From Candidatus Omnitrophota bacterium (GTDB taxonomy: Bacteria > Omnitrophota > Gorgyraeia > Gygaellales > Gygaellaceae), in the NCBI GenBank assembly GCA_018400015.1, contig JAGYNB010000002.1, positions 52,402 to 116,401 of the forward strand: a stretch of 64,000 nt of DNA, given 5' to 3'. The notes beneath the pieces are model-generated. The model saw nothing but the letters and a program-made list of their open reading frames with translations, was not told the DNA's origin and made no database searches. The translations under genes were made by a program, and so were the position numbers. Position 1 is the first letter of the stretch; every line of letters starts with the position of its first letter. Positions 17,911-57,793 of the stretch are shown here, in pieces.

Positions 17911-19605
17911 ATGCTTACCAACTTACAGATTGCTAAACAAGCCAAATTAAAACCTATTAGTGTTATTGCCCGTAATATTGGTTTAAGGAATAAAGATATT
18001 ATTCCTTATGCTAATTATGCGGCCAAGGTGGATCTAGATAGCGTAAGGCCGATATTAAGAAAACATAAAGGAAAATATATATTAGTTACCGGGATAAATC
18101 CTACACCGTTTGGTGAAGGGAAAACCGTTACTTCCATCGGTTTATCTATGGCTTTGGCAAAAAAAGGCAATCAAAAATCAATAGCCTGTATTAGACAGCC
18201 TTCCTTGGGGCCGATTTTTGGTATTAAAGGTGCTGGTACAGGAGGAGGGTTTTCGCAGGTTGTGCCTAGGGAAGACTTGAATCTGCATTTTACCGGAGAC
18301 CTTCATGCAGTGGGCGTTGCCCATAATCTATGCGCAGCTTTTCTGGATAATCATATCTATAGGGGAAACGCTTTAGATATTGATGCAAGAAATATATTTC
18401 TAAGAAGGGTAATTGATATTAATGATAGGGCCTTGCGCAACATCAAGATCTCCGTAGGATTAAAAAATAATAGTTTAGCGAGAATTAGCGGTTTTGACAT
18501 GACAACCAGTTCGGAAGTGATGTCGATCCTGTCGTTATGCAAAAGTTTTAAGGATTTAAGGAAACGTTTAGGAAGAATGACCTTGGCTTTATCACATAAG
18601 AAGACTCTGATTACCGCAGACGATCTTAAGGTGTCTGGGGCAATGGCAGTTTTGTTAAAAGATACTATAAAACCTAATCTGGTGCAGACTGTTGAGAATA
18701 CGCCGTGTTTTATGCATACCGGTCCTTTTGCAAATATATCACACGGGAATACCTCTATTTTAGCTGATAAATTGGCGCTAAACTTGAGCGAATTCGTAGT
18801 GACTGAATCAGGTTTTGGCACTGACTGCGGAGCAGAAAAGTTTTTTGATATTAAATCACGCATCTCAGGCGATATTCCGGATTGTGTCGTTTTGGTTTGT
18901 TCGGTGAGGGCAATAAAAATGCACAGTAATAAAATTGCTGTTTATCCGGGAAGGCCATTGGATAAAAGACTATATCAAGAGAATTTGGGGCTTCTAAAAA
19001 AAGGTATTTGTAATTTAAAGAGGCATATTGAAAATATTAGGCTTTTTGGTTTGTCTTGTGTTGTAGCAATCAATAGATTCGATAGCGATACAGATGAAGA
19101 AATAGATTTCTTAATAAAATCATCTTTAGAGTTTGGCGCAGATTTTGCCGCAGAAAATAGATGTTTTTCGAAGGGGTCAGAAGGTGCTTTGGAATTAGCA
19201 GGTTGTGTTATAAAAGCAAGCAATAAGAGTAAGAATTTCCGTTATTTGTATGATTTGGATATGTCAATTAGGGAAAAGATATCCATTATCGCAAAAAAAA
19301 TCTATGGTGCCAGAAGTGTTAGGTTTTCTCGCTTTACAGAAGAAAAAATAAGGTTGTTTAATCGCTTGAAATTTGATAAACTACCCGTGTGTATAGCTAA
19401 AACTCATTTATCGCTGTCGCATGATTCTTTACGTAAAGGGGCGCCGACAGATTTTGTTATACCGATAAATGATTTAAGGCTTCAAAGCGGAGCTGGTTTT
19501 TTATATGCTTTAGCCGGCAAGATAAACACGATGCCGGGATTGCCCACAAGACCCATAGGTGAATTGATGGATATCGATTCAAAAGGGAACCCAAAAGGTT
19601 TTTAG
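17911..19605 (+). CDS. fhs: formate--tetrahydrofolate ligase
   Basis: GINPTPFGEGKTVTSIGL P-loop and full-length FTHFS similarity. Confidence 0.9.
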   Translation: MLTNLQIAKQAKLKPISVIARNIGLRNKDIIPYANYAAKVDLDSVRPILRKHKGKYILVTGINPTPFGEGKTVTSIGLSMALAKKGNQKSIACIRQPSLGPIFGIKGAGTGGGFSQVVPREDLNLHFTGDLHAVGVAHNLCAAFLDNHIYRGNALDIDARNIFLRRVIDINDRALRNIKISVGLKNNSLARISGFDMTTSSEVMSILSLCKSFKDLRKRLGRMTLALSHKKTLITADDLKVSGAMAVLLKDTIKPNLVQTVENTPCFMHTGPFANISHGNTSILADKLALNLSEFVVTESGFGTDCGAEKFFDIKSRISGDIPDCVVLVCSVRAIKMHSNKIAVYPGRPLDKRLYQENLGLLKKGICNLKRHIENIRLFGLSCVVAINRFDSDTDEEIDFLIKSSLEFGADFAAENRCFSKGSEGALELAGCVIKASNKSKNFRYLYDLDMSIREKISIIAKKIYGARSVRFSRFTEEKIRLFNRLKFDKLPVCIAKTHLSLSHDSLRKGAPTDFVIPINDLRLQSGAGFLYALAGKINTMPGLPTRPIGELMDIDSKGNPKGF

Positions 19606-19606
19606 A

Positions 19607-20095
19607 ATGTATATAGAGAAAAGTATAAAAAAATATATTGAAGATTTATCTTCCCGTAAATCCACACCCGGTGGCGGTTCTGCCGCTGCCTTGACCGCGT
19701 GTTTGGGGGTTTGTTGTATGTGTATGGCCGCTCGTTTTAGTATTGGCAAAGGGAAAAACAAGGGTTTTGAAAGAAAAATAAAATCGATAATAAGCAAACT
19801 TGAAAAAATAAGGAATAGACTCAAGAGATTGGTTGATTTGGATATCGTAGCATATAATAAATACTCCCGGTCGCGCAGTAAACCTTTAGAGGTAAGACAG
19901 TTACTGTTAGAAAAAGCTGCAGCAGTACCAAAAGAGGTTTGTCAATTATGCTATGAGGCTTTGCTTTTGGCTCCAGAATTGGCAGAAAAAGGCAATTTTA
20001 ACCTTATCGCCGATGTGGAAGTCGGTGTTGAGTTGTTGGAGGCCGCTTTTAAATCTGCACTTATAAACGTAAGAATAAATAATGAAACTGCTTGA
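19607..20095 (+). CDS. fchA: cyclodeaminase/cyclohydrolase-family protein (methenyl-THF cyclohydrolase FchA-like)
   Basis: FTCD_C-like TPGGGSAAALTA motif; lies between fhs and folD. Confidence 0.7.
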   Translation: MYIEKSIKKYIEDLSSRKSTPGGGSAAALTACLGVCCMCMAARFSIGKGKNKGFERKIKSIISKLEKIRNRLKRLVDLDIVAYNKYSRSRSKPLEVRQLLLEKAAAVPKEVCQLCYEALLLAPELAEKGNFNLIADVEVGVELLEAAFKSALINVRINNETA

Positions 20096-20918
20096 AGGTA
20101 AGACTATAGCTGAAGAGATTAAAGCATCCTTAAAAAAGGATATCAATAATTTTAATCAGCAGCCTGTTTTAGCCAGCGTAAGATTGGGAGATAATTCTTC
20201 TGTGGAAAGCTATGTAAGAGCCCAGCAAAAATGCGCTCAGGAATTAGGGATTGATTATAAGTTAAAATCTCTGTCTACTCAGACTACACAAGAACAGTTA
20301 ATAGAATCTATCATTGAGTTTAATAGAAACAAAAATATAAACGGTATTATTATACAATTGCCTTTGCCGGAACATATCGATGTAAGAGGTATTTATTTAG
20401 CCGTTTCGCCGGGAAAAGATGTGGAGTCTATGCATCCTGAGAATTTAGGAAAGCTTTTTTTCCCGCAAGAGACAATCGCTCCCTGTACGGCAACCGCAGT
20501 AATGGAATTATTAAAATCTATTAATTTTAAGCTTTACGGGAAAGAGGTTGTTGTAGTTGGCCACAGTATGATCTTAGGGAAGCCTTTGTCGATAATGCTG
20601 TTAAATAATTATGCTACAACTACCGTTTGTCATATTGCAACATATAAGGCAGAGCATTTAATAGAGCACATAAAACAGGCTGATGTTTTAGTCGTTGCCG
20701 TGGGGAAAGCAAATTTTATAAAACAGGATTGGGTAAAAAAAGATGCGGTAGTTATTGATGTAGGGATAAATAGTCTAAATGGTAAAATAACCGGAGACGT
20801 GGATTTCGAAAGTGTCAGCAAGAAAGCGAGTTTTATCACTCCTGTTCCAGGAGGAGTAGGACCTTTGACTTCGGCGATATTAATGCGTAATTTAGTTAGA
20901 TTAGCGAAAAGAAAATGA
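20082..20918 (+). CDS. folD: bifunctional methylene-THF dehydrogenase/methenyl-THF cyclohydrolase
   Basis: FolD family, C-terminal PVPGGVGPLT. Confidence 0.9.
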   Translation: MKLLEGKTIAEEIKASLKKDINNFNQQPVLASVRLGDNSSVESYVRAQQKCAQELGIDYKLKSLSTQTTQEQLIESIIEFNRNKNINGIIIQLPLPEHIDVRGIYLAVSPGKDVESMHPENLGKLFFPQETIAPCTATAVMELLKSINFKLYGKEVVVVGHSMILGKPLSIMLLNNYATTTVCHIATYKAEHLIEHIKQADVLVVAVGKANFIKQDWVKKDAVVIDVGINSLNGKITGDVDFESVSKKASFITPVPGGVGPLTSAILMRNLVRLAKRK

Positions 20919-21574
20919 TAGTTACAAAACAAAAAAGTTTTCAAGATATAATGGAAGCGCTAAAAAATAAAACCAATATATTTATTATTGGTTGTGGGGA
21001 ATGTGCTACGACTTGTAAAACTGGTGGAGAAGATGAGGTTAAACTTCTCTGTGCAGAGTTATCTAAAAACAACAAGAACATAACCGGTTTTGTTATTCCT
21101 AAAGCTCCTTGTGTTGTCAGCCAGACAAAAAGAGACTTGTCAAAGTTTCGCGCGGAGTTGGAAAGATCAGACTGCATTTTAGTTATGGCATGTGGTTTGG
21201 GTGTTCAGGCTGTTATACAAAGCAAGCGTTTTAACTCAAAAGTTGTCAGCGGTTGCGATACGTTGTTTGCCGGTTCGATGACTTCATTGGGTGAGTTCTT
21301 TGAATTTTGTTCTTCGTGCGGAGAGTGTTTATTAAATATTACCGGTGGTCTTTGTCCCGTAACGCGGTGTCCAAAATCATTATTAAACGGCCCCTGCGGC
21401 GGTGCAAAAGACGGAAAATGTGAAGTAGATAGAACCAAGGATTGCGTATGGATATTGATTTATGAGCGTCTTAAAGAGTTGGGAGAACTTGATAATATCA
21501 AGTCCATAGTCAAGGCAAAAAATCATCGTAAGAATTTACGACCGGGAGTAAGGTCTTTAAAAAAAGAAAATTAA
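20915..21574 (+). CDS. metV: methylene-THF reductase C-terminal-domain protein (MetV-like, Cys-rich)
   Basis: Several CxxC pairs (IGCGECATTC, CSSCGEC, CPVTRCP); sits immediately 5' of metF as in acetogens. Confidence 0.65.
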   Translation: MIVTKQKSFQDIMEALKNKTNIFIIGCGECATTCKTGGEDEVKLLCAELSKNNKNITGFVIPKAPCVVSQTKRDLSKFRAELERSDCILVMACGLGVQAVIQSKRFNSKVVSGCDTLFAGSMTSLGEFFEFCSSCGECLLNITGGLCPVTRCPKSLLNGPCGGAKDGKCEVDRTKDCVWILIYERLKELGELDNIKSIVKAKNHRKNLRPGVRSLKKEN

Positions 21575-21576
21575 TT

Positions 21577-22446
21577 ATGAGTAAATTAGAAGCAGCTTTT
21601 AAAAACAATAAATTTGCAATTACAAGTGAAATCGGTCCGCCCAAGGGTGTTTCTTTTGAACAGATTTTAAAGGAAAATATTTCTTTAAGAGAAAGAGTGG
21701 ATGCGATTAATGTTACTGATTTGCAGAGTTCTGTTATGCGTTTGGGTTCATTGGCATTTTCTAAGATTTTATTGGATAATGGCATAGAACCGGTTTTTCA
21801 GCTTACCTGTAGAGATAGAAATAGGCTTGCTTTGCAGTCAGATCTTCTGAGCGCGGCAGTTTTAGGCATTGAAAACGTTCTCTTATTGACCGGAGATCAC
21901 CCTGTTTTGGGTGACCATCCAGAGGCAAAACCTGTATATGATTTAGACAGCGTACAACTTTTAGATTGTGCGAAAGGCCTTATAAATGGAGTTGATCTTT
22001 GCGGTAATAAACTTACCGGTAGTCCCAAATTATTTTTAGGCGCAGTTGTCAACCCGGGTGTAGAGACAATAGACCTGGAATTATTAAAGATGGAAAAAAA
22101 GGTAAAAGCAGGGGCGCAGTTTTTTCAGACTCAGGCAGTTTATGATTTATCCAGTTTTGAAAGGTTTATGAAAAAAGCAATTACTTTTGGTGTTCCGATA
22201 ATGGCAGGTATAGTACTTTTGAAATCTGCCAATATGGCCAGATACTTGAACGATAATGTTGCCGGTATAAATGTACCGGATGGATTGATTAAACGCATGC
22301 AAGATTCAAAGGATAAAGTCAAAACGTCAATTGGAATTGCTTCAAGCTTGATAAAGGAGCTGAAGGGCAATTGCCAGGGCGTACATATTATGCCTATCGG
22401 TTGGGATAAACACGTAGTAGCAGTTTTAGATCAGGCCGGTTTATAA
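21577..22446 (+). CDS. metF: 5,10-methylenetetrahydrofolate reductase
   Basis: MTHFR TIM-barrel similarity (LTCRDRNR, FFQTQAVYD motifs). Confidence 0.8.
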   Translation: MSKLEAAFKNNKFAITSEIGPPKGVSFEQILKENISLRERVDAINVTDLQSSVMRLGSLAFSKILLDNGIEPVFQLTCRDRNRLALQSDLLSAAVLGIENVLLLTGDHPVLGDHPEAKPVYDLDSVQLLDCAKGLINGVDLCGNKLTGSPKLFLGAVVNPGVETIDLELLKMEKKVKAGAQFFQTQAVYDLSSFERFMKKAITFGVPIMAGIVLLKSANMARYLNDNVAGINVPDGLIKRMQDSKDKVKTSIGIASSLIKELKGNCQGVHIMPIGWDKHVVAVLDQAGL

Positions 22447-22448
22447 TT

Positions 22449-23321
22449 ATGAATATCTTAATTATTGGAAGTTCTGCTGCAGGTATTGAGGCTGCAGGTA
22501 TGATTGTTTCCGCAGATAAATCTCACAATGTTACCATAGCAAGCGAGGATTCGGTTTTGCCCTATTATCGGTTTAAACTCGCGGATTTTCTTTTTAGTAA
22601 GGCTTGTGAGAACGGGTTTTATTTTAAGGATCAAACTTTCTTTGATAAGAACAAGATAAAATTATTATTAGGTAAGAAAGCAATAAGCTTGGATACGAGA
22701 CGTAAAAGAGTCAAATTAGATGATAATGGCTATCTGGATTTTGACAGGCTTTTGGTTGCCACAGGAGCCAATTGCGTATTGCCGGATATTAAAGGCATAA
22801 ATAAAAAGAATGTTTATGGATTAAGGAGTTTTTCCGACGTGGAAGAGATAAAAAAGAACTTGCCGGTATCTGATACAATATTTTTGGTAGGCAATGAAGC
22901 ATATTTACAGGATATGGCTTCAAATTTAAGCTCTCAGGGAAAAGAAGTTTTCTTGATTACTCAAAATAATGAACTTTTGAATAATATTAAGCAAAGCGAT
23001 AATTTAAGGTTTGTCCTTGATGATGAAATATCTGAAATAATCGGAGAATCTCAGGTTCAGGCAGTTAAGCTTAAAAGTGGTAAAGTCTTTGCCTGTTCTT
23101 TATTGATATATAATGGTAATTTTAGTCCGAACATATCATTATTGAAAGGCTCGCCGGTTGATTTATCCGATAATGGGGTAATTGTAGATGAAAATATGCG
23201 TACTAATTTAGATTTTATTTTTGCCGCTGGAGACGTGGTTGCAAATGAGACAATATCAAATCGTACTTGGGAAAATGCGCTCAAACAGGGCAGGAAAGCT
23301 GGCTTGGCAATAGTTTTATAG
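22449..23321 (+). CDS. truncated pyridine-nucleotide-disulfide oxidoreductase-family flavoprotein (LpdA/Nox N-terminal-like)
   Basis: Rossmann N-terminus IIGSSAAG, LVATGANCVLPDIKG and AAGDVV motifs; no dimerisation domain; GxGxxG motifs degenerate. Confidence 0.6.
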   Translation: MNILIIGSSAAGIEAAGMIVSADKSHNVTIASEDSVLPYYRFKLADFLFSKACENGFYFKDQTFFDKNKIKLLLGKKAISLDTRRKRVKLDDNGYLDFDRLLVATGANCVLPDIKGINKKNVYGLRSFSDVEEIKKNLPVSDTIFLVGNEAYLQDMASNLSSQGKEVFLITQNNELLNNIKQSDNLRFVLDDEISEIIGESQVQAVKLKSGKVFACSLLIYNGNFSPNISLLKGSPVDLSDNGVIVDENMRTNLDFIFAAGDVVANETISNRTWENALKQGRKAGLAIVL

Positions 23322-23370
23322 TTCATTTCTTTATGCCGCACGATAGATTAACAATCCCTGATCTCTTATA

Positions 23371-25419
23371 ATGACAAATAAATTTTCTTTAGAAAAATCG
23401 TTATCAATAGTAGAAAATAATACCAAAAGATTTTTTCAAGAATATATAATTGGTAATTCCAATATAAGATTTTCTTTTGATGATATTGAAAATGCTTTTC
23501 CTTTGTTTTTGTGTTTTTTTGGCAATAGGATTATCAGTAAGAAACAATTAAGCTTGGCTCTCGATAAGATATCTTGCATGCAGAATAAGACGGTGAAAAA
23601 TACGAAAACATTAAAATTGAGTGAATATGTTAGAAGGCTTGGTTTGATTGCTTTATTTTATGAAGAGATTCGTATATATTGTCAAATTATATTAAAACAT
23701 ATAGAATTAGAAAAAGCAATTTATAGTGATGAACGAATCAGGAACCTCGGCATAGGTTTATTAGATAATTCCTTAAGCGGCTTTATTATAGTGCCAAAGA
23801 AGACAAAAGATAAAAGTTTAGCGGATAACATAATAAGACGAAATCTGTTTTATAATGATAATATTTACAGAACCGTTCAGTGCTTAGTCAGGATTAGTTT
23901 GATGTTTGGTTGTAAAAATAAAATAAACCGGCAGTCTGTAATTAATTACTGCGCGCAGAACATACCGGCTGCAACTGTTTTGTTTGGTGATGCAAAACCC
24001 GAATATATTGCGCAAGCATTGGGTGGATTGAATTTTTCTTTAGCGGTTATTGCAAATAAAAACTTAGCAAGCGTTAAATATATTAAAGCAAAAGATGGTT
24101 TTGATAATGTTGTATTTTTTAAGAACAATGATGAAATTATCGATAAGGCAATCGAAACAAGAAATATTAGGATTAATCCTGATTTAAGCCGTTTTCCTGT
24201 AGGCTTTTCAGATACTTTTCAAGGGCAAATAATTAAAGATAAGGATCTATTGATTGATTTTCCTGTTGGATCAACCTGTGAATTGTTGGTAGATAAACCA
24301 TCTTCTTTTGTACATGACGGGAAGATTGAATTAATTGGGCATGAGTTAGATAAAATAGTTTACAATGATAAAAACAACAGGTTTTTTATATTGTTAGAAG
24401 TGGCGTTTAAAAATGAAACTAGTCGATTTAATGCTGTTCTAGAAAGGCAAATACACAGGTTTATAAATTATATAGATGGTGTAAGCCATCGGGGGCAGAA
24501 GGATTTTTTTAGCTTATCAATTAGCAAAGACGCATTCAGAAAAGGTTTGAGATTGAAAGACATTGCTTTTTTTATTTATGCAATGTTGCATAAAGAGTAT
24601 CATAGTATCGTTAGTAAGGTCCAGATAAAAATAGTTACAGACAAAAAAGAATTTGAAAAACAACTGAAAAAAACTAAAGTCATATACAGCAGTCGTTTAT
24701 TGAAAAGCTTTAAGTTAACAGATACATATGTCAAAGAATTTTATTCGTGTTCGATATGTAGCAGTTTTGTTTTAAATCATGCCTGCATTATTACTCCTGA
24801 ACATCCCGGTCTTTGCGGTTCTTATTCATTTGATGATGCAAGGATTGCTTTTAGGATTGATCCTTCCGGCGCTAGTCGTCCTATAAAAAAAGGCAAAATT
24901 ATTAGCCGCAGGCTTGGGCAATGGCAGGGGATAAACGAATTTGTCGCTAAGACAAGCAAAGAGAAAATTAAGAATATTAATCTTTATTCTATAATGCAAT
25001 CTCCACATACTTGTTCTGCGTGTTTTGAGTGTATAGTTTTGGTATTGCCGGAAGTCAACGCAGTTATGGCAGTAAGCAGAGATTATAATGGTAATACTCC
25101 TATGGGGCTGGGATTTACAGAATTGGCAGAGTTGTTTGAGTATGACAAACAGTCTCCCGGGATGATCTGTTCTAGCCGGATTTTCTTATTGAGTAAAAAA
25201 TTCATTGCTGCAGAGGGGGGTTTGGATAGGGTTGTTTGGATGAATAGCAGCTTAAAGCAATTTCTCCTAAAACACAATGGTTTTTATTTTAAAAATGATC
25301 AACTGAAGAACAGTTTAAGGAAAATTGCAGATGAGCATAACTGTATAACCTTAAAGGGGCTAGGAGAATTCATAAGTAGGGTAAAGCATCCTTGTCTGGG
25401 TATGAAGAATATTATCTAA
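23371..25419 (+). CDS. acsB: acetyl-CoA synthase (CO-methylating ACS, AcsB/CdhC family), full length with N-terminal CODH-interaction domain
   Basis: FYSCSICSSFVLNHACIITPEHPGLCGS reproduces the C-x2-C-x8-C-x9-C A-cluster [4Fe-4S] motif; ERQIHRFINY, VHDGKIELIG and LLSKKFIAAEGGLDRVVWM match conserved ACS blocks. Confidence 0.8.
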   Translation: MTNKFSLEKSLSIVENNTKRFFQEYIIGNSNIRFSFDDIENAFPLFLCFFGNRIISKKQLSLALDKISCMQNKTVKNTKTLKLSEYVRRLGLIALFYEEIRIYCQIILKHIELEKAIYSDERIRNLGIGLLDNSLSGFIIVPKKTKDKSLADNIIRRNLFYNDNIYRTVQCLVRISLMFGCKNKINRQSVINYCAQNIPAATVLFGDAKPEYIAQALGGLNFSLAVIANKNLASVKYIKAKDGFDNVVFFKNNDEIIDKAIETRNIRINPDLSRFPVGFSDTFQGQIIKDKDLLIDFPVGSTCELLVDKPSSFVHDGKIELIGHELDKIVYNDKNNRFFILLEVAFKNETSRFNAVLERQIHRFINYIDGVSHRGQKDFFSLSISKDAFRKGLRLKDIAFFIYAMLHKEYHSIVSKVQIKIVTDKKEFEKQLKKTKVIYSSRLLKSFKLTDTYVKEFYSCSICSSFVLNHACIITPEHPGLCGSYSFDDARIAFRIDPSGASRPIKKGKIISRRLGQWQGINEFVAKTSKEKIKNINLYSIMQSPHTCSACFECIVLVLPEVNAVMAVSRDYNGNTPMGLGFTELAELFEYDKQSPGMICSSRIFLLSKKFIAAEGGLDRVVWMNSSLKQFLLKHNGFYFKNDQLKNSLRKIADEHNCITLKGLGEFISRVKHPCLGMKNII

Positions 25420-52408: not shown

Positions 52409-52960
52409 ATGAAAGAGATTAGAATACATGCCCGTGCCGGTCAGGGCGCAATAACGACCGCGGTAATTTTAGGACAGGCTTATTTTCAGGAAGGGAAGTA
52501 TGTCTATGCCTTTCCGCATTTTGGGGCAGCCAGAATGGGTGCGCCTATGAATGCCTTTGTCCGCTTGGATGATAACCCTGTAAGGCTGAGAAGCCAGATA
52601 TATTATCCTAATTACCTTTTGGTTATAGATGATACTCTTTTGAGGGGTTTTAATTGTTTTGCCGGGTTTCAAGACCGGGGCATTGCTGTAATTAATACAA
52701 ACCAGGAGTCTTTGGCTACTGGTGTAAAAAAGACACAGAAAGCCTACTTTGTTCCAGGTAATGACATTGCTTTAAAGACTATAGGTAAGCCTTTAGGTAA
52801 TACTGCCATTTTGGGTGCTTTTGTTGCCGCAACCGATGAGCTAAAGTTGGATTCTTTATTAATTAGTATAGAAAAGCGTTTTCCTGAGAAGATCCGTAAG
52901 GTAAATATAGAAGCGGCAAAACAGGGTTACGAATTTGTAAAAAAAATAAGGAATAAATGA
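52409..52960 (+). CDS. porG: pyruvate/2-oxoacid:ferredoxin oxidoreductase gamma subunit
   Basis: HARAGQGAITTAVILGQA motif. Confidence 0.85.
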   Translation: MKEIRIHARAGQGAITTAVILGQAYFQEGKYVYAFPHFGAARMGAPMNAFVRLDDNPVRLRSQIYYPNYLLVIDDTLLRGFNCFAGFQDRGIAVINTNQESLATGVKKTQKAYFVPGNDIALKTIGKPLGNTAILGAFVAATDELKLDSLLISIEKRFPEKIRKVNIEAAKQGYEFVKKIRNK

Positions 52961-52961
52961 T

Positions 52962-53216
52962 ATGTTCGGTCCTTTAATAGCAAAACCAGGTTCAAGTCAG
53001 CATAATAAAACAGGTTCATGGCGAATAAAGTCTAGGCCAAAATTCTTAAAAAAAGAGTGTATTGGTTGTAAGCTGTGTATTTTAGTTTGTCCTGAAAGCT
53101 GCATTACGGGAAGCGATAAGGATACCATAAATTGCGATCTTGATTACTGTAAAGGTTGTGGTTTATGTGTAAAGATCTGTCCTAAAAAAGATATCATAAT
53201 GGAAGAGGAAAGATGA
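52962..53216 (+). CDS. porD: pyruvate:ferredoxin oxidoreductase delta subunit (2x[4Fe-4S])
   Basis: CIGCKLCILVCPE and CKGCGLCVKICP ferredoxin motifs. Confidence 0.85.
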   Translation: MFGPLIAKPGSSQHNKTGSWRIKSRPKFLKKECIGCKLCILVCPESCITGSDKDTINCDLDYCKGCGLCVKICPKKDIIMEEER

Positions 53217-54388
53217 GACAGTTTCTTGAAGGCTCACAGGCTATTGCTAAAATCGTATCTCTTTGTCGGCCGGGTGTGATATCGGCATATCCTATAACTC
53301 CCCAGACGCATATAGTTGAAGGCTTGGCACAGTATGTTGCCGATGGAAAGTTAAAAAGTGAATTTGTTAACGTAGAAAGTGAACATTCAGCAGCTTCTGT
53401 GGTATTAGGCGGTTCTGCAGCAGGATCAAGAGTATTTACGGCAACCAGCTCTCAAGGGCTGTTTTTGATGGCTGAGGTTGTATTTAATATTGCCGGTATG
53501 AGGCTTCCTGTTGTAATGGTTGTGGCAAACCGCGCGATATCAGCCCCTATAAATATTTGGAACGACCATCAGGACAGCATTTCTTTAAGAGATTCAGGTT
53601 GGATTCAGTTGTATGCTGAAAGCATACAAGAGGCAGTTGATGCTACAATTCTTGCATATAGAATTGCTGAGAATAAAGATATTCTTTTACCGGTTATGGT
53701 GTGTATGGACGGTTTTATACTTACTCATGGGTTAGAACCTGTTGATATGCCGCAGGAACAAGATGTTAAAAAGTTCCTTCCAGACTACAAGGCAATTCTG
53801 AAATTAGATGTTGATAAGCCTATAAGCATGGGTTTATTAGCCGATCCGGATTATTATCTGGAGACTAGGTATGCGATTCAAAAAACGCACGAAGATGTTT
53901 TAGGGCTTATTCCTAAATTATCCGAAGAATTCGAGAATGTATTTACAAGAAAATGTGTTGGTTTAGTAGAAGAGTACCATACTAAAGATGCGGATAAAAT
54001 TATTGTTGCTATGGGTTCTGTATGCGGAACGATAAAAGAAGCAGTTGATATAATGCGTTCTAAGAAAAAAAAGGTAGGGTTGTTAAAAATAAGTACCTAC
54101 AGACCATTTCCTTATAAGGAAATATGCCGGGTTCTTTCAAAGGCAAAATCAGTTGCCGTATTGGATAAGGCAGTTTCTTTAGGGGCATACGGTCCGTTAT
54201 ATGCAGATATAACCAGTGCTTTTTCAGGAAAATCTAAATCACCTAAAATTAGCGGTTTTGTAGCAGGTTTAGGTGGAAGAGATATTATGCTGGACACGAT
54301 TTATGCAATCTTTAAGAAGCTTAATGGTACGGCAAAACCTTGCGAATATGTCGATGTAAAACAGGAATTATTAAGAGATCATTTATGA
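53213..54388 (+). CDS. porA: pyruvate:ferredoxin oxidoreductase alpha subunit
   Basis: PorA family similarity, gene order G-D-A-B. Confidence 0.85.
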   Translation: MRQFLEGSQAIAKIVSLCRPGVISAYPITPQTHIVEGLAQYVADGKLKSEFVNVESEHSAASVVLGGSAAGSRVFTATSSQGLFLMAEVVFNIAGMRLPVVMVVANRAISAPINIWNDHQDSISLRDSGWIQLYAESIQEAVDATILAYRIAENKDILLPVMVCMDGFILTHGLEPVDMPQEQDVKKFLPDYKAILKLDVDKPISMGLLADPDYYLETRYAIQKTHEDVLGLIPKLSEEFENVFTRKCVGLVEEYHTKDADKIIVAMGSVCGTIKEAVDIMRSKKKKVGLLKISTYRPFPYKEICRVLSKAKSVAVLDKAVSLGAYGPLYADITSAFSGKSKSPKISGFVAGLGGRDIMLDTIYAIFKKLNGTAKPCEYVDVKQELLRDHL

Positions 54389-55278
54389 GTAAAGATACCG
54401 TTAATAACGAAAAACCTTATTTGTTAAAACCAGGGCATACTGCTTGTGCTGGCTGCGGGCAATCTTTGGCTGCGCGTCTTGTGATTGATGCAGCAGGTAA
54501 AAACACTATTGTGGTTAATAATACAGGATGTCTCGAGGTGTTTAGTACCAAATGTCCAGAATCAAGCTGGGATGTTCCTTGGGTGCATTCGCTTTTTGAG
54601 AATGCCGCTGCCGTAGCCTCAGGAGTAGAAGCCTCATTGAAGCATTTTAATAAAAAAGATAAAATAAATGTTATAGCTCAAGCTGGAGACGGCGGTACCG
54701 CGGATATCGGTTTACAGGCTCTTTCAGGCATGCTTGAAAGAGGTCATGATATATTATATGTTTGTTATGATAACGAAGCTTATATGAATACGGGAATTCA
54801 GCGTAGCGGTCTTACACCTTTTAGCTCCAACACAACGACAACTCCGCCAGGAAGCGAATCTAAAGGTAATTGGAGGCCGAAAAAACCAATTCATGAGATA
54901 TGTAATGCCCATGGGATACCTTATGTTGCAACTGCTACGATTGCCTATCCGCAGGATATACAGCAAAAGGTGAAAAAGGCTCTTTCTATTAAGGGGCCAA
55001 AATACATGCAGATACATGTACCCTGTCCTTTGGGGTGGAGATTTGATTCATCTTTGTCTTTAGAGGTTGCCAAGCTTGCTGTAGAAACCGGGCTTTATCC
55101 GATAATAGAATACGAACAGGGAGCCCTTTCCAGGGTCAGAAAAATTATCCCTAAGCCAGTAGTAGAATATTTGAAAACACAAGGAAGATTTAAACACCTT
55201 TTAAAAGACGAACAGGCAATATCTGGGGTTCAGAGGATTGCCGATATCAATATAGAAACATACGGTCTTAAAAGTTAG
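54385..55278 (+). CDS. porB: pyruvate:ferredoxin oxidoreductase beta subunit (TPP-binding)
   Basis: CAGCG.. and GDGGTADIG TPP/Fe-S motifs; start taken at MSKDTV, overlapping the porA stop. Confidence 0.85.
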   Translation: MSKDTVNNEKPYLLKPGHTACAGCGQSLAARLVIDAAGKNTIVVNNTGCLEVFSTKCPESSWDVPWVHSLFENAAAVASGVEASLKHFNKKDKINVIAQAGDGGTADIGLQALSGMLERGHDILYVCYDNEAYMNTGIQRSGLTPFSSNTTTTPPGSESKGNWRPKKPIHEICNAHGIPYVATATIAYPQDIQQKVKKALSIKGPKYMQIHVPCPLGWRFDSSLSLEVAKLAVETGLYPIIEYEQGALSRVRKIIPKPVVEYLKTQGRFKHLLKDEQAISGVQRIADINIETYGLKS

Positions 55279-55487: not shown

Positions 55488-56336
55488 GTGAAAGAGGCAA
55501 GATTTTATAAGGCGTTAGATGGGGATAAGGTTCAGTGTGAGCTTTGTCCCCATTTTTGTTTAATAGAGCCTGATAAAATCGGGATCTGTAAGGTAAGAAA
55601 AAATATTAAAGGCAGGCTCTACTCGCTTAATTATGCAAAAATAAGTTCCCTCGCGTTAGACCCAATAGAAAAAAAACCTCTTTACCATTTTCATTCAGGA
55701 GAATATATTCTTTCAGTTGGCACATCCGGGTGTAATTTGAAATGTTTGTTTTGCCAGAACTGGAGCATATCACAAGAAACACCAGATTTAAAGCAAATTT
55801 CAAGCGAATTCTTGGTTCAGGAGGCCAAATCGAATGATTCTTTTGGTATCGCTTATACTTATAATGAGCCTTTTATCTGGTATGAGTTTGTGTTTGATAC
55901 GGCCAGACTCGCTAAGGAAAACGGTTTAAGAAATGTATTGGTTACAAATGGTTTTATAAATCCAAAGCCGCTTAAAGATATGTTGCAATTTATCGATGCG
56001 ATGAATATAGATTTAAAATCAATCGGTAATAATTTTTATAAAGATTATTGTAAAGCAAGCCTAAAACCAGTATTAGAAACGATAAAAACATCTTCTCGAT
56101 ATTGTCATGTGGAATTGACCAATCTTGTGATATCCGGTCTTAACGATAAAGAGGAGAATTTTATTCAGTTGAGAGATTGGATTTATGATAATCTTGGACC
56201 GGATGCGATTCTTCATATCTCTAGGTATTTTCCATGTTATAAGATGAATATAATACCCACCCCAATAGATACGCTTAAAAAAGCACAAGAGATAATTGGA
56301 AAAAAATTAAGATATGTATATTTGGGAAATGTTTAG
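55488..56336 (+). CDS. AmmeMemoRadiSam-system-type radical SAM enzyme (PFL-activase-like)
   Basis: N-terminal CELCPHFC and SGCNLKCLFCQNW radical-SAM CxxxCxxC cluster. Confidence 0.75.
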   Translation: MKEARFYKALDGDKVQCELCPHFCLIEPDKIGICKVRKNIKGRLYSLNYAKISSLALDPIEKKPLYHFHSGEYILSVGTSGCNLKCLFCQNWSISQETPDLKQISSEFLVQEAKSNDSFGIAYTYNEPFIWYEFVFDTARLAKENGLRNVLVTNGFINPKPLKDMLQFIDAMNIDLKSIGNNFYKDYCKASLKPVLETIKTSSRYCHVELTNLVISGLNDKEENFIQLRDWIYDNLGPDAILHISRYFPCYKMNIIPTPIDTLKKAQEIIGKKLRYVYLGNV

Positions 56337-57793
56337 TCTGTAAGGGCAGAAATATTGCTTTTTAGGTTAGCTTTTTCTCTTACCGAATTTAAAAGCTTCA
56401 AGTTGACGTTATTTTCTTCTTTTTCAAGTTCTGATTTTAGAAATTCCTCTTTTTTTTCAGCAAATTTATTTATATCCACCGGATAAAGTTTATCAAGCGA
56501 GATTATATAAAATTTGTTTTCAATCCTTAACGGAGGGCTTATTTCTTTATCTTTTAGTATAAAAGCGATATCGGAAAGCTCGTTGCTGTATCCTAATTTT
56601 GGGAACATCTTTGTTTGTCTGGTGAAGGTGTCAGTTGTGTAAGGTTTCTTTTTTAAAGATTTTGCCAATTGCTCGAACGTAATATTTGGGTTTTCTTTTT
56701 GTTTCTTTATCATTGCATCGTATAGGGAATTTATTTTCTCTAAAGCCAGTTTTGCTTTTTGTTCATTTATGATTTTGGTTATGAGCATATCTTTTGCTTT
56801 CATAAAGTCAATAGTATAGTCGGATTGTTTTTCTAAAACTTTTAGCATATAGTAACCGTTATTTATTTCCATAGGATTAGAGATTTTTCCAACCTCCATA
56901 AATGTAGAAATCGCAATTATTTGGTTTTCTGGATTATCGTTTAAAAGTAATTGATTATCAGCGATTTTTTCTCCCGTGGTTTTAAATACAAGGGAGTTAG
57001 ATTTGGCAAATTCTTCTAAATCAGTATCTTCATCGATGTTTTTTGCCAAGGAATCAAGTTTTTGTTTGAGGATTTCTTTTTCTTCTTTTGTCAATTGCTG
57101 CTTGTATGGTGAGCCTATGTAGGCAGCATTTATCATAACTTTATTTTGGAAATCGTTGATATTTTTTTCGTAGTAGTCTTTTAATTCCTCAATAGAGGGA
57201 TTTTTTATTTGGAAATCATCGCAATCTACGAATATGTAATCAATAGATACCTTTTCATATTGGTCTTTGTAACGAGAAAGAAGATCTTGGTCGGTAATTT
57301 TAATTTCAGATGTATTTTGGGAATAGAGCTTTTCAATGGTAAGCGCATCGCGAATTTCCTCTTCGAATTGTCGTTTTGATATATTAAATGTTGTTTGCAA
57401 TATTTGTTGGTAAAGGTATTTATCAAATACACCGTTTTTTTTGAAAAACGGCATTGAGGTTATTGTGTTTATTACTTCTTTATCGCTTACTTTTATTCTT
57501 CTTTTTCTCGCCTCGTTTAAAAGCAATAATCTGTCCCAGGACAGTTTATTTATGGTAAAAGGGTTTGGTTTTTGATTTATGCCTTTTAATGCGAATATAT
57601 GTTCTACCGCAAGTTTGCTTTTTAGGAATTTCTCTATAGATATTTTTTTGCCGAACATTTCTCCGGCATGTTCGCTTGACGATCTATTCTGAAGAGCGAA
57701 ATTCGCACCCCAGAATATAAAGGAAGGAACGATTAAAGCGGTTAAGACCCAAAATATTCCTTTTATGTGTTTTTTGCTTAATTTGCCGAACAT
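56333..57793 (-). CDS. PpiD/SurA-like periplasmic chaperone (N-terminal TM anchor)
   Basis: MFGKLSKKHIKGIFWVLTALIV anchor typical of PpiD and a SurA_N-like domain; no clear parvulin motif. Confidence 0.6.
   Translation of the reverse strand: MFGKLSKKHIKGIFWVLTALIVPSFIFWGANFALQNRSSSEHAGEMFGKKISIEKFLKSKLAVEHIFALKGINQKPNPFTINKLSWDRLLLLNEARKRRIKVSDKEVINTITSMPFFKKNGVFDKYLYQQILQTTFNISKRQFEEEIRDALTIEKLYSQNTSEIKITDQDLLSRYKDQYEKVSIDYIFVDCDDFQIKNPSIEELKDYYEKNINDFQNKVMINAAYIGSPYKQQLTKEEKEILKQKLDSLAKNIDEDTDLEEFAKSNSLVFKTTGEKIADNQLLLNDNPENQIIAISTFMEVGKISNPMEINNGYYMLKVLEKQSDYTIDFMKAKDMLITKIINEQKAKLALEKINSLYDAMIKKQKENPNITFEQLAKSLKKKPYTTDTFTRQTKMFPKLGYSNELSDIAFILKDKEISPPLRIENKFYIISLDKLYPVDINKFAEKKEEFLKSELEKEENNVNLKLLNSVREKANLKSNISALTD

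What the first reader, a model, noticed from the sequence alone, without database searches (positions are those of the whole stretch)
17911..25419. Contiguous Wood-Ljungdahl methyl-branch operon fused to a lone acetyl-CoA synthase gene
fhs, fchA, folD, metV, metF, an LpdA-like flavoprotein and acsB are consecutive, co-oriented and mostly overlapping. The order fhs-fchA-folD-metV-metF-lpdA mirrors the acetogen cluster, but here it is condensed and followed directly by ACS. CODH (acsA/cooS), CFeSP (acsCD), methyltransferase acsE and cooC do not flank it; the downstream neighbours are a TPR protein and polA. The porGDAB operon later in the window would link acetyl-CoA to pyruvate.
Basis: partly seen in the sequence, partly recalled or inferred. 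Interest (0 to 1): 0.7.

Follow-up and report, generated by a model that had tools for sequence, protein, structure and literature searches.

The report
CODH-less folate locus with degenerate ACS
The seven genes are real, but they are the usual one-carbon locus of the candidate phylum Omnitrophota after loss of its CO dehydrogenase, and the 'acetyl-CoA synthase' left behind has lost its nickel-binding Cys-Gly-Cys motif while still being kept by selection, so it probably no longer makes acetyl-CoA.

Summary
No CODH, CFeSP, acsE or cooC gene occurs anywhere in the 64-kb window.

The interpretation needs revision.
- This is not a condensed clostridial cluster. It is a chromosomal locus conserved across Omnitrophota (tgt-trmD-rplS-rnhB-…-TPR-polA-glgA).
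- Relatives carry metF-cooS-cooF-flavoprotein(421 aa)-acsB(726 aa) there, or a CODH-less form with a flavoprotein::AcsB fusion. CODH-less partial Wood-Ljungdahl pathways in this phylum are already published.

What is unusual is the AcsB.
- Its only close relative is in Ca. Gygaella obscura (55% identity).
- Both proteins keep the four [4Fe-4S] cysteines and the CO-alcove residues.
- Both replace S-C-G-C with C-S-(A/L)-C and lose the CoA-stacking Trp and the N-terminal Pfam signature.
- The gene evolves fastest in its block, yet dN/dS is about 0.23.

The 'LpdA' is a truncated CODH-associated flavoprotein homologue.

My best reading is that the folate genes serve biosynthesis, and that the AcsB-like/flavoprotein pair is a retained, repurposed remnant. 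This is a new variant of a known kind, of moderate interest.

The parts
17911..19605 (+). fhs, formate--tetrahydrofolate ligase (564 aa)
   Evidence: PF01268 at 753 bits and NF010030 at 718 bits, above its cut-off. It is 56-57% identical to Fhs at the same position in loci L007, L008 and L012. It is absent from the Gygaella locus, where only relic fragments remain.
19607..20095 (+). fchA-like methenyl-THF cyclohydrolase (FTCD_C domain, 162 aa)
   Evidence: PF04961 at 141 bits. NCBIfam FchA scores 109 bits, below its 275-bit cut-off. It is syntenic in all related loci.
20082..20918 (+). folD, bifunctional methylene-THF dehydrogenase/cyclohydrolase (278 aa)
   Evidence: PF02882 and PF00763. 75% identical to the Gygaella orthologue, with dN/dS 0.08.
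20915..21574 (+). metV-like subunit of methylene-THF reductase (219 aa)
   Evidence: PF12225 at 117 bits. 85% identical to the Gygaella orthologue, with dN/dS 0.05. No gene with this Pfam domain lies between folD and metF in L007, L009, L012 or L013.
21577..22446 (+). metF, methylene-THF reductase (289 aa)
   Evidence: PF02219 at 133 bits. The best NCBIfam match is to the MTHFR half of PRK08645. 86.5% identical to the Gygaella orthologue, with dN/dS 0.06.
22449..23321 (+). Short FAD-type flavoprotein (290 aa). It is a truncated homologue of the CooS/CooF-associated 421-aa oxidoreductase, not LpdA.
   Evidence: Pyr_redox_2 is the only hit above its cut-off, and every NCBIfam hit is far below cut-off. 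Residues 4-285 align to residues 5-304 of the 421-aa L007 protein. The Rubredoxin_C domain is missing, and the second GxGxxG motif reads 'VGNEAYL' where L007 has 'GGGLVGL'. [quoted passage not shown]
23371..25419 (+). AcsB-like protein (682 aa) with the three-domain ACS fold and an altered A-cluster motif
   Evidence: Family and fold: PF03598 and PF19436 hit, PF18537 does not. The AF2 model has pLDDT 83 and matches 6ytt_A with TM 0.72; its N-terminal domain matches 6yua.

Kept residues:
- The four [4Fe-4S] cysteines, C460/C463/C472/C482.
- Alcove residues G127, I128, F179 and F466; the fifth is L131 in place of Val.

Lost residues:
- Canonical S594-C595-G596-C597 reads C548-S549-A550-C551.
- The CoA-stacking Trp is S381.

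Evolution: 55% identical to Gygaella P0002 and only 34-39% to canonical Omnitrophota AcsB. dN/dS is 0.23.
24997..25032 (+). Codons for residues 543-554 (SPHTCSACFECI), the site of the replaced Cys-Gly-Cys nickel motif
   Evidence: Alignments. All 100 full-length canonical homologues compared, and 120 of 120 CODH-less Omnitrophota AcsB proteins, carry CGCFEC here.
52409..55278 (+). porG-porD-porA-porB, pyruvate:ferredoxin oxidoreductase. This is context only and is not part of the operon.
   Evidence: PF01558, PF01855 with PF17147, and PF02775. An 84-aa two-[4Fe-4S] porD lies at 52962-53216.

Best explanation
The region is the conserved one-carbon locus of Omnitrophota (class Velamenicoccia, Gygaella-related lineage), seen at a late stage of reductive evolution.

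**History of the locus (inferred from comparison).** The ancestral locus read fhs-fchA-folD-metF-cooS-cooF-flavoprotein-acsB. In this lineage:
- cooS and cooF were cleanly deleted.
- The flavoprotein lost its C-terminal domain and its NAD(P)-binding motif.
- AcsB, freed from its CODH partner, diverged rapidly.

**The folate genes (inferred from family assignments and strong constraint).** They work as ordinary biosynthetic folate metabolism:
- Formate + THF + ATP gives 10-formyl-THF (Fhs).
- 10-formyl-THF is converted to methenyl- and then methylene-THF (FchA, FolD).
- Methylene-THF is reduced to methyl-THF (MetVF).
- These supply purines, fMet, thymidylate and methionine. They are not the methyl branch of an acetogenic pathway.

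**The AcsB-like protein.**
- It no longer has the Cys-Gly-Cys site for the distal nickel, and it lacks the Trp that stacks on the CoA adenine. I therefore think it does not catalyse canonical acetyl-CoA synthesis or cleavage.
- It is nevertheless maintained. It keeps the [4Fe-4S] ligands and the bridging Cys.
- A cysteine has shifted by one position (S594C together with C595S), which preserves three thiolates around the proximal-metal site.
- The hydrophobic CO alcove is kept.

**Proposed function (inference only).** I infer a repurposed Fe-S protein, possibly with a single nickel. It would still bind a small gas or ligand at a Ni(Cys)3-like site and work with the adjacent short flavoprotein, to which AcsB is physically fused in sister lineages. 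Its substrate is not known.
For: **Orthology and deletion history.**
- Identical flanking genes occur in L001, L007, L008, L009/L010, L011, L012, L013 and L014 (ruvB-queH-spoIID-queA-tgt-trmD-rplS-rnhB upstream; TPR-polA-glgA-coaE-rho-rpmE-prfA-prmC-aroA downstream).
- cooS-cooF lie between metF and the flavoprotein gene only in L007, L008 and L009; L011 also carries them upstream of the flavoprotein gene but is cut before metF.
- In an NJ tree the window and Gygaella proteins form one long branch inside the Omnitrophota AcsB clade. In 99 of 100 bootstraps the sister group held only sequences I had labelled as Omnitrophota-type.

**Accelerated evolution, but with constraint.**
- Window versus canonical Omnitrophota loci: AcsB is 34-39% identical, while folD is 52-56%, metF 61-66% and polA 49-51%.
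- Canonical lineages are 61-74% identical to one another in AcsB.
- Window versus Gygaella: AcsB is 55% identical against 64-96% for all neighbours but one, a poorly conserved ORF at 36.5%. dN/dS is 0.23 against 0.02-0.21 for the neighbours tested.
- The CODH-docking A1 domain is the most conserved domain in the one canonical pair compared (78%) and the least conserved here (46%, dN/dS about 0.4).

**Active-site changes shared by both species.**
- SCGC is replaced by CS(A/L)C.
- The Trp equivalent to C. autoethanogenum Trp405 is Ser or Asn.
- PF18537 gives no hit.

**Retained features.**
- The three-domain fold.

**Link between flavoprotein and AcsB.**
- Fusions of 1014-1030 aa occur in several Omnitrophota lineages.
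- The same short flavoprotein sits next to another degenerate AcsB in L014.

**Partner genes.**
- None occur in the window.
- None are listed for the Gygaella obscura MAG in Table S5 of PMC8542988. That MAG is 90-94% complete and 1.38 Mb.

**Ongoing decay of the locus.** Relic fragments of fhs remain in the Gygaella spacer.

**Chemistry.** A designed Ni(Cys)3 site binds CO and reacts with a methyl donor, according to the abstract of PMC10299331.
Against: - The rest of this genome could not be read. The window is part of a 246-kb contig in a genome that is probably about 1.4-1.5 Mb, so CFeSP, AcsE, CooC or a second acs cluster could lie elsewhere.
- The published Gygaella gene table also failed to list the AcsB-like gene, so it would miss equally divergent partners.
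- Conservation of the CO alcove, of three thiolates and of His362/Gly375 is also what a still-working CO-dependent ACS with an unusual nickel site would show.
- Synonymous divergence is near saturation (dS about 1.2-2), so the dN/dS values are approximate.
- No expression data, metal content or activity is available.
- The proposed partnership with the flavoprotein rests only on gene fusion and adjacency.
Confidence: 0.6

Rival explanations
1. It is a working, CODH-independent acetyl-CoA synthase. The cell takes CO from outside or from metabolism, methyl-THF from the adjacent methyl-branch genes and a CFeSP/AcsE encoded elsewhere, and makes acetyl-CoA, or runs the reaction in reverse as in Dehalococcoides. 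This is the reading Seymour et al. gave for CODH-less Omnitrophota.
For: - Partial Wood-Ljungdahl pathways lacking AcsA/CooS/F are reported for 24 Omnitrophota species, including a family of the same order, and are read as CO-using AcsB-E.
- The CO-alcove residues, the [4Fe-4S] cysteines, three proximal-site thiolates, and His362/Gly375 are conserved.
- The gene is under purifying selection.
- fhs is retained in this genome.
Against: - The Cys-Gly-Cys tripeptide that forms the square-planar N2S2 distal-nickel site (PMC8910529) is absent, whereas all 100 full-length canonical sequences compared and 120 of 120 CODH-less Omnitrophota AcsB proteins keep it. Loss of the adjacent CODH therefore does not by itself explain the change.
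- The CoA adenine-stacking Trp and the neighbouring conserved Arg residues are replaced.
- No CFeSP, AcsE or CooC gene is in the window or in the published Gygaella gene table.
- Gygaella has also lost fhs.
Confidence: 0.2
2. It is a non-functional relic. The AcsB-like ORF is simply decaying after loss of CODH and the carbonyl branch, and it has not yet been disrupted.
For: - It is the fastest-evolving of the genes tested in the syntenic block.
- It has lost catalytic residues.
- fhs in the sister species has decayed to fragments at the same locus.
- Other Omnitrophota AcsB homologues have lost both nickel-binding cysteines: P0008 reads SSSSLFEC and P0125 reads TSSGYFEC.
- Genomes in this lineage are reduced.
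Against: - Both species keep full-length, colinear ORFs (682 and 687 aa) despite near-saturated synonymous divergence.
- dN/dS is 0.23 overall and 0.20 in the cluster domain.
- The diverged N-terminal domain carries long motifs shared by the two species.
- The S594C/C595S pair looks compensatory.
- Every residue that ligates the [4Fe-4S] cluster is invariant.
Confidence: 0.12
3. It is a laterally acquired clostridial-type Wood-Ljungdahl cluster that later lost cooC-acsD-acsC-acsE by internal deletion. This is what the first reader's 'mirrors the acetogen cluster' implies.
For: The order fhs-fchA-folD-metV-metF-flavoprotein-acsB resembles my recollection of the Clostridium ljungdahlii cluster order. 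That resemblance was not tested here.
Against: - The locus and its housekeeping flanks are shared vertically across Omnitrophota lineages.
- AcsB nests within the Omnitrophota clade.
- The flavoprotein is homologous to the Omnitrophota CooS/CooF-associated oxidoreductase.
- GC content and GC skew are uniform across the window.
- In the ancestral version the genes missing from between metF and acsB are cooS and cooF, not acsCDE.
Confidence: 0.03

Closest known systems
Partial Wood-Ljungdahl pathway of Omnitrophota lacking AcsA/CooS/F (Seymour et al. 2023, PMC10066038; e.g. Velamenicoccus archaeovorus, Profunditerraquicolaceae)
   Same: It belongs to the same phylum and class. The chromosomal locus is the same, with no CODH and no formate dehydrogenase nearby, and acsB follows the folate genes directly (loci L012 and L013).
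   Different: Those AcsB proteins are 842-1030 aa with an N-terminal flavoprotein domain or extension. All 120 examined keep CGCFEC, and they are reported together with AcsC/D/E. The window protein is 682 aa, has C-S-A-C, has lost the CoA-stacking Trp and the PF18537 signature, and no CFeSP or AcsE is known for its lineage.
Canonical bacterial CODH/ACS alpha subunit (Moorella thermoacetica AcsB, PDB 1OAO/1MJG; C. autoethanogenum, 6YTT/9G7I; monomeric ACS of Carboxydothermus hydrogenoformans, 1RU3)
   Same: It has the three-domain fold (TM 0.72 to 6ytt_A), the four [4Fe-4S] cysteines including the bridging Cys509 equivalent, alcove residues G145, I146, F229 and F512, and the Ca His386 and Gly399 equivalents.
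   Different: - Sequence identity is only 27-28% over the structure-based alignment.
- The Cys595-Gly596-Cys597 motif is replaced.
- The Trp405(Ca) CoA contact is lost.
- About 35 residues are deleted from domain A1, and only 24 of 70 highly conserved A1 positions are kept.
- There is no CODH partner.
Incomplete Wood-Ljungdahl pathway of Dehalococcoides mccartyi, in which acetyl-CoA cleavage supplies methyl groups (Zhuang et al. 2014; recalled from memory and seen only in titles listed)
   Same: It is an ACS without a CODH in a small-genome anaerobe, embedded in one-carbon metabolism.
   Different: As I recall it, Dehalococcoides keeps AcsC/D and CooC, lacks MetF, and uses ACS to make methyl-THF. 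Here MetVF is present and strongly conserved, CFeSP is not found, and the nickel site is altered.
Other degenerate AcsB homologues in Omnitrophota and in metagenomes (P0008 at L014, P0125, and other ACS-family cluster representatives lacking CGC)
   Same: They are full-length ACS homologues that keep the four [4Fe-4S] cysteines but not the Cys-Gly-Cys motif. P0008 sits in the same syntenic locus, next to the same kind of short flavoprotein.
   Different: P0008 and P0125 have lost both nickel-binding cysteines (SSL and SGY) but keep a PF18537 hit. The window/Gygaella clade keeps Cys597 and gains a Cys at position 594. I found no published description of any of these.

Membership tests
Acetyl-CoA synthase (bacterial AcsB, A-cluster enzyme) | Four cysteines ligating the [4Fe-4S] cubane, including bridging Cys509 (C-x2-C-x8-C-x9-C) | tested here: met
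   C460, C463, C472 and C482 are invariant in alignments with 10, 58 and 102 sequences and in the HMM alignment.
Acetyl-CoA synthase (bacterial AcsB, A-cluster enzyme) | The Cys595-Gly596-Cys597 tripeptide, which provides the N2S2 distal-nickel site and two thiolates to the proximal nickel | tested here: not met
   The window reads C548-S549-A550-C551 and Gygaella reads C-S-L-C. The canonical sequence S-C-G-C is present in all 100 full-length homologues compared and in 120 of 120 Omnitrophota AcsB proteins of 789-1318 aa. Numbering and coordination are taken from PMC8910529.
Acetyl-CoA synthase (bacterial AcsB, A-cluster enzyme) | Hydrophobic CO alcove (Mt G145, I146, V149, F229, F512) | tested here: met
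   The equivalents are G127, I128, L131 (Val to Leu), F179 and F466. The residue list comes from PMC11321310.
Acetyl-CoA synthase (bacterial AcsB, A-cluster enzyme) | CoA/acetyl-CoA contacts in domain A2 (Ca Trp405 stacking on adenine, a basic patch, His386, Gly399) | tested here: inconclusive
   Trp405 is S381 in the window and Asn in Gygaella. The conserved Arg residues at window positions 377 and 383 are Lys/Ser and Ser. His362 and Gly375 are kept. Residue roles come from bioRxiv 10.1101/2024.08.05.606187.
Acetyl-CoA synthase (bacterial AcsB, A-cluster enzyme) | N-terminal A1 domain that docks on CODH and carries the CO tunnel (Pfam PF18537) | tested here: not met
   PF18537 gives no hit, although the full-length homologues carry it. 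Only 24 of 70 highly conserved A1 columns are kept, and about 35 residues are deleted. The fold itself is still predicted: it matches 6yua with target-normalised TM 0.69-0.70.
Acetyl-CoA synthase (bacterial AcsB, A-cluster enzyme) | Curated whole-protein score (NCBIfam NF040764 and NF007078) | tested here: not met
   514 bits against a cut-off of 800, and 509 bits against 809.
Complete Wood-Ljungdahl pathway (KEGG M00377) | CODH (AcsA/CooS) supplying CO | tested here: not met
   There is no Prismane-family ORF and no tblastn hit in the 64-kb window, and none at the position it occupies in L007, L008 and L009.
Complete Wood-Ljungdahl pathway (KEGG M00377) | Corrinoid iron-sulfur protein AcsC/AcsD and methyltransferase AcsE | not testable with these tools
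   None is in the window. None is listed for the sister species in Table S5 of PMC8542988. The remainder of this genome could not be fetched.
Complete Wood-Ljungdahl pathway (KEGG M00377) | Methyl branch: Fhs, FolD (and FchA), MetF | tested here: met
   Formate dehydrogenase was not found in the window.
Dihydrolipoyl dehydrogenase (LpdA) | A flavoprotein of about 460 aa with a redox-active CxxxxC disulfide, an NAD-binding GxGxxG motif and a C-terminal dimerisation domain | tested here: not met
   - The protein is 290 aa.
- TIGR01350 scores 39 bits against a cut-off of 409.
- There is no dimerisation or Rubredoxin_C domain.
- The second Rossmann motif is degenerate.
- The CxxxxC disulfide was not examined.

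The most novel reading that the evidence does not exclude
The AcsB-like protein and its short flavoprotein partner form a previously unrecognised enzyme derived from acetyl-CoA synthase. It would have a [4Fe-4S] cluster bridged to a single Ni(Cys)3-type metal site, made by a one-residue shift of a cysteine, with the CO alcove kept but without the distal nickel, CODH, the corrinoid protein or the CoA-adenine pocket. It would do something other than acetyl-CoA synthesis in ultra-small, probably host-dependent Omnitrophota. One possibility is binding or converting CO or another small ligand to protect the cell's only [FeFe] hydrogenase. Another is a corrinoid-independent one-carbon reaction tied to the neighbouring MetVF. 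Several other Omnitrophota lineages with fully nickel-less AcsB would then be relatives of the same repurposed scaffold.
Probability: 0.25. Interest if true: 0.75.

Novelty: new variant of a known kind. Interest (0 to 1): 0.45.

Why it matters
Acetyl-CoA synthase is one of the most conserved and best-studied organometallic enzymes. Its Ni-Ni-[4Fe-4S] cluster is usually treated as invariant, and genome surveys score 'acsB present' as evidence for acetogenesis or carbon fixation.

This locus shows that an acsB hit next to a full methyl branch can be misleading. In this lineage the nickel motif and a CoA contact are gone, and the partner genes are missing from the window and from the sister species' published gene table. 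Metabolic reconstructions of Omnitrophota and similar reduced genomes should therefore check the Cys-Gly-Cys motif before calling a partial Wood-Ljungdahl pathway.

It also provides a natural series for asking what each part of ACS is for. The same locus occurs with CODH, without CODH with a fused flavoprotein, with a shifted cysteine, and with no nickel cysteines at all. The same series can be used to ask what the conserved flavoprotein next to acsB does, and whether the ACS scaffold has a second, nickel-poor function.

The arrangement itself is ordinary for the phylum and is already published as a partial pathway.

Tried and rejected
**Searches that led nowhere.**
- I tried to identify the source genome and read the rest of it.
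  - The exact-protein look-up found no contig on record.
  - Cluster look-ups gave only 'NCBI, 246148-bp contig' with no name.
  - Genome-wide absence of cooS, acsCDE and cooC therefore remains untested for this organism.
- A metagenome-contig scan with the two-sequence profile returned nothing.
- The promoter and terminator scan was uninformative: 35 promoter-like sites against 32.7 expected, and no convincing terminator after acsB. Co-transcription is inferred from spacing only.

**Ideas considered and rejected.**
- A pseudogene. Rejected on the intact colinear ORFs and dN/dS 0.23.
- A clostridial origin or lateral transfer. Rejected on synteny, the tree and uniform composition.
- That loss of the neighbouring cooS alone explains the degenerate motif. 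Rejected because 120 of 120 AcsB proteins related to those at the CODH-less loci keep CGCFEC.
- That the variant clade is widespread. Rejected because a word-indexed search of 5.8 billion proteins and an exhaustive HMMER search of 1.84 billion cluster representatives found only the window protein and the Gygaella protein, with a gap to the next hit (1412 versus 484 bits).

**Limits of what was done.**
- Structure prediction could confirm the fold but not the metal-site geometry, because no coordinates were available.

Full report
**1. The observation**

The window has 36% G+C and a uniformly positive GC skew, and almost every gene lies on the + strand.

At 17911-25419 there are seven consecutive ORFs:
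- Fhs, 564 aa: PF01268 at 753 bits, and NCBIfam equivalog NF010030 above its cut-off.
- An FTCD_C-domain cyclohydrolase, FchA-like, 162 aa.
- FolD, 278 aa.
- A MetV-like protein, 219 aa: PF12225.
- MetF, 289 aa.
- A 290-aa Pyr_redox_2 flavoprotein.
- A 682-aa protein with the CdhC and ACS_CODH_B_C domains of acetyl-CoA synthase.

Spacing is tight. There are two overlaps, three gaps of 1-2 nt, and one 49-nt spacer before acsB.

The flanks are all housekeeping genes:
- Upstream: ruvB, queH, spoIID, queA, tgt, trmD, rplS and rnhB.
- Downstream: a TPR protein, polA and glgA, then coaE, rho, prfA, prmC (by synteny with L001), then aroA and a trp operon.
- porGDAB lies at 52409-55278.

I scanned the + strand ORFs of at least 100 aa across the window against Pfam, apart from coaE, rho, prfA and prmC, which I assigned by synteny. 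None is a CODH, a CFeSP subunit, AcsE or CooC. tblastn with an Omnitrophota CooS and with the C-terminus of the long flavoprotein finds no relic. The observation therefore stands.

**2. Whose locus it is**

The AcsB homologue has one close relative among 5.8 billion proteins. It is a 'hypothetical protein' of Candidatus Gygaella obscura, at 55-56% identity. The next hits are canonical AcsB proteins at 29-43% local identity, 29-37% for the full-length ones, and the best of them are from Omnitrophota.

An exhaustive HMMER search of 1.84 billion cluster representatives found no further member. The self score is 1412 bits and the next hit scores 484. A scan of 185,579 species genomes with subfamily-specific motifs returned only Gygaella obscura.

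According to the supplementary tables of PMC10066038, Gygaella obscura belongs to class Velamenicoccia, order Gygaellales, family Gygaellaceae. Its MAG is 1.38 Mb and 90-94% complete, from Ace Lake, Antarctica.

The Gygaella locus is colinear with the window over at least 22 kb, except that fhs is missing. Its 279-bp rnhB-fchA spacer still encodes two fragments similar to Fhs residues 380-397 and 472-503.

**3. The ancestral arrangement**

Looking up the best canonical Omnitrophota AcsB proteins returned the same chromosomal neighbourhood each time.

- **With CODH.** Loci L007, L008 and L009 read tgt-trmD-rplS-rnhB-(UPF0102)-fhs-fchA-folD-metF-cooS-cooF-(an AAA_26/DRTGG protein in L008 and L011)-flavoprotein of 421 aa (Pyr_redox_2 + Rubredoxin_C)-acsB of 726 aa-TPR (absent in L008)-polA-glgA-coaE-rho-rpmE-prfA-prmC-aroA. 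L011 shows the same cooS-to-polA segment but is cut at both ends.
- **Without CODH.**
  - In L012, metF is followed directly by a 1028-aa fusion of a short flavoprotein domain with AcsB.
  - In L013, fhs is also absent and AcsB is 855 aa.
- **CFeSP and acsE.** Neither is part of this locus in any lineage.

The window is therefore the orthologous locus with cooS and cooF cleanly removed: metF ends at 22446 and the flavoprotein gene starts at 22449.

Seymour et al. 2023 already describe this 'partial WLP' lacking AcsA and CooS/F in 24 Omnitrophota species. They read it as CO-dependent use of AcsB-E. A lone acsB behind the methyl-branch genes is thus ordinary for the phylum.

**4. What is not ordinary: the AcsB itself**

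*Kept features*
- The four cysteines of the [4Fe-4S] cubane are kept: C460, C463, C472 and C482. C463 is the equivalent of the bridging Cys509.
- Alcove residues G127, I128, F179 and F466 are kept, and L131 stands where Moorella has Val149. The residue list is from PMC11321310.
- His362 and Gly375 are kept. They match His386 and Gly399 of the C. autoethanogenum enzyme, which contact the acetyl group.

*Lost or changed features*
- The sequence that canonically reads S594-C595-G596-C597-F598-E599-C600 (Moorella numbering, PMC8910529) reads C548-S549-A550-C551-F552-E553-C554 in the window. In Gygaella it reads C-S-L-C-F-E-C.
  - The Cys-Gly-Cys tripeptide supplies two thiolates and two backbone amides to the distal nickel, so that site cannot form as known.
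  - The number of thiolates is preserved, however, by a cysteine appearing one residue earlier. Both species share this change, which looks compensatory.
- Every one of the 100 full-length canonical homologues compared, and 120 of 120 Omnitrophota AcsB proteins related to those at the CODH-less loci, keep CGCFEC. Losing the neighbouring CODH is therefore not enough to explain the change.
- Trp405 of the C. autoethanogenum enzyme, which stacks on the adenine of acetyl-CoA, is Ser in the window and Asn in Gygaella. Two neighbouring conserved Arg residues are also replaced.
- The N-terminal A1 domain gives no PF18537 hit, keeps only 24 of 70 highly conserved positions, and has a deletion of about 35 residues.

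*Fold*
- AlphaFold still predicts all three ACS domains (pLDDT 83). The model matches 6ytt_A with TM 0.72, and the A1 domain alone matches 6yua.

**5. Tempo and mode of evolution**

Comparison with canonical Omnitrophota loci:

| Protein | Window vs canonical lineages | Canonical lineages vs each other |
|---|---|---|
| AcsB | 34-39% | 61-74% |
| FolD | 52-56% | 64-73% |
| MetF | 61-66% | 71-78% |
| PolA | 49-51% | 58-63% |

The flavoprotein behaves like AcsB (34-35%).

Comparison with Gygaella:
- AcsB is 55% identical, the lowest of the conserved block. The neighbours are 64-96% identical, apart from one poorly conserved ORF at 36.5%.
- Its Nei-Gojobori dN/dS is 0.23 (dN 0.34). The fifteen neighbours tested range from 0.02 to 0.21.
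- By domain, A1 is 46% identical with dN/dS about 0.40, and A3 is 61% identical with dN/dS about 0.20. In the one canonical pair compared (L007 vs L008), A1 is the best conserved domain at 78%.
- dS is close to saturation, so these ratios are rough.

Two intact, colinear ORFs of about 685 codons at this divergence are not what a neutral sequence would give.

An NJ tree of domains A2 and A3 puts the window/Gygaella pair on a long branch inside the Omnitrophota clade. In 99 of 100 bootstraps its sister group held only sequences I had labelled as Omnitrophota-type.

The picture is vertical descent, a burst of change after the partners were lost, and continued purifying selection that is weakest on the former CODH-docking domain.

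**6. The flavoprotein**

It is not LpdA: TIGR01350 scores 39 bits against a cut-off of 409.

Residues 4-285 align with residues 5-304 of the 421-aa CooS/CooF-linked oxidoreductase of L007. The protein lacks the Rubredoxin_C domain, and its second dinucleotide-binding motif is degenerate.

A domain of the same short type is fused to the N-terminus of canonical AcsB in several Omnitrophota lineages, giving proteins of 1014-1030 aa. A short flavoprotein whose stop overlaps the acsB start also precedes another degenerate AcsB in L014.

Fusion together with persistent adjacency suggests that the two proteins work together. What they do together is not shown.

**7. Other degenerate AcsB proteins**

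- P0008 (717 aa) sits in the same syntenic position and reads SSSSLFEC.
- P0125 (717 aa) reads TSSGYFEC.
- Both keep the four [4Fe-4S] cysteines.
- Many other 50%-identity cluster representatives of the ACS family also lack CGC. Some of these are fragments, and I did not examine them.

I found no paper describing such proteins in four literature searches.

**8. What it most likely does**

*Shown*
- The gene identities.
- The orthology of the locus.
- The loss of cooS and cooF.
- The altered motif.
- The retained fold and cluster ligands.
- The selection pattern.

*Inferred*
- The folate genes, which are the most constrained in the block (MetV and MetF at 85-86% identity, dN/dS 0.05-0.06), provide biosynthetic one-carbon units. 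That explains why they survive while the carbonyl branch is dismantled.
- The published reconstruction of Gygaella obscura as a sugar and 2-oxoacid fermenter fits this. It has Rnf, an [FeFe] hydrogenase and glycogen synthesis, and no Acs genes or Fhs are listed.
- The AcsB-like protein probably no longer makes or cleaves acetyl-CoA, because it lacks the distal-nickel site, a CoA contact and, as far as can be seen, its methyl donor.
- Its retained [4Fe-4S] ligands, three proximal thiolates and CO alcove suggest a metal site that still binds a small ligand. A designed Ni(Cys)3 site binds CO and reacts with a methyl donor (PMC10299331, abstract).

I rate this 'repurposed remnant' reading at about 0.6, a still-working CO-dependent ACS at about 0.2, and a functionless relic at about 0.12.

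**9. Verdict**

But the arrangement is the known partial Wood-Ljungdahl locus of Omnitrophota, not a novel condensed acetogen cluster.

That makes it a new variant of a known kind. It has practical consequences for pathway calling from acsB hits, and a modest chance of revealing a new use of the ACS scaffold.

The main gap is that the rest of the genome could not be examined.

Noticed in passing
L001:5951-6230 (Ca. Gygaella obscura, spacer between rnhB and fchA): The 279-bp spacer where the window has fhs still encodes fragments similar to Fhs residues 380-397 (61% identity) and 472-503 (53%). fhs therefore decayed in place in the sister species. L013 also lacks fhs at this position.
   Followed up: partly
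L012:10001-13087 (P0281); also P0124, P0272-P0278: In several Omnitrophota lineages a short Pyr_redox_2 domain of about 300 aa is fused to the N-terminus of a canonical AcsB, giving proteins of 1014-1030 aa. Many other Omnitrophota AcsB proteins are about 850 aa, and in some of them the N-terminal extension aligns to part of that flavoprotein domain (89% query coverage). The function of the fusion is unknown.
   Followed up: partly
L014:567-2720 (P0008); P0125, P0133, P0142, P0157, P0162 and others: These full-length ACS homologues keep the four [4Fe-4S] cysteines but lack the Cys-Gly-Cys motif altogether, reading for example SSSSLFEC or TSSGYFEC. P0008 lies in the same syntenic locus next to a short flavoprotein. 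Nickel-site-less ACS homologues seem to be recurrent and, as far as I could find, undescribed.
   Followed up: partly
window:20915-21574: The metV-like gene between folD and metF is present in the window and in Gygaella. It is absent from the orthologous loci L007, L009, L012 and L013, where folD abuts metF. L008 has an unrelated 167-aa ORF with no Pfam hit at that position.
   Followed up: no
window:32302-33513: A 403-aa ORF after rho has no Pfam hit. It is only 36.5% identical to the 451-aa protein at the same position in Gygaella, which carries a Peptidase_S74 domain. It is by far the least conserved gene of the syntenic block.
   Followed up: no
window:39874-40602: A 242-aa ORF with no Pfam hit sits inside an otherwise standard tryptophan operon, between the PRAI (trpF) and PALP (trpB) genes.
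   Followed up: no
window:50525-52348: A 607-aa fusion of a chorismate-binding domain with an aminotransferase class IV domain looks like a PabB-PabC fusion for p-aminobenzoate and folate synthesis. It lies just upstream of porGDAB and fits a cell that makes its own folate cofactors.
   Followed up: no
window:62561-62989: The SpoVG homologue carries an insertion. The 82-position Pfam model spans residues 12-135, and there is a weak double-zinc-ribbon match at residues 68-90.
   Followed up: no
window:1-64000: GC skew is positive in every 2-kb bin (0.11-0.27). Only one of the ORFs with a family assignment lies on the - strand (the SurA-like gene at 56333-57793). This suggests one long leading-strand stretch with extreme gene-strand bias.
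   Followed up: no
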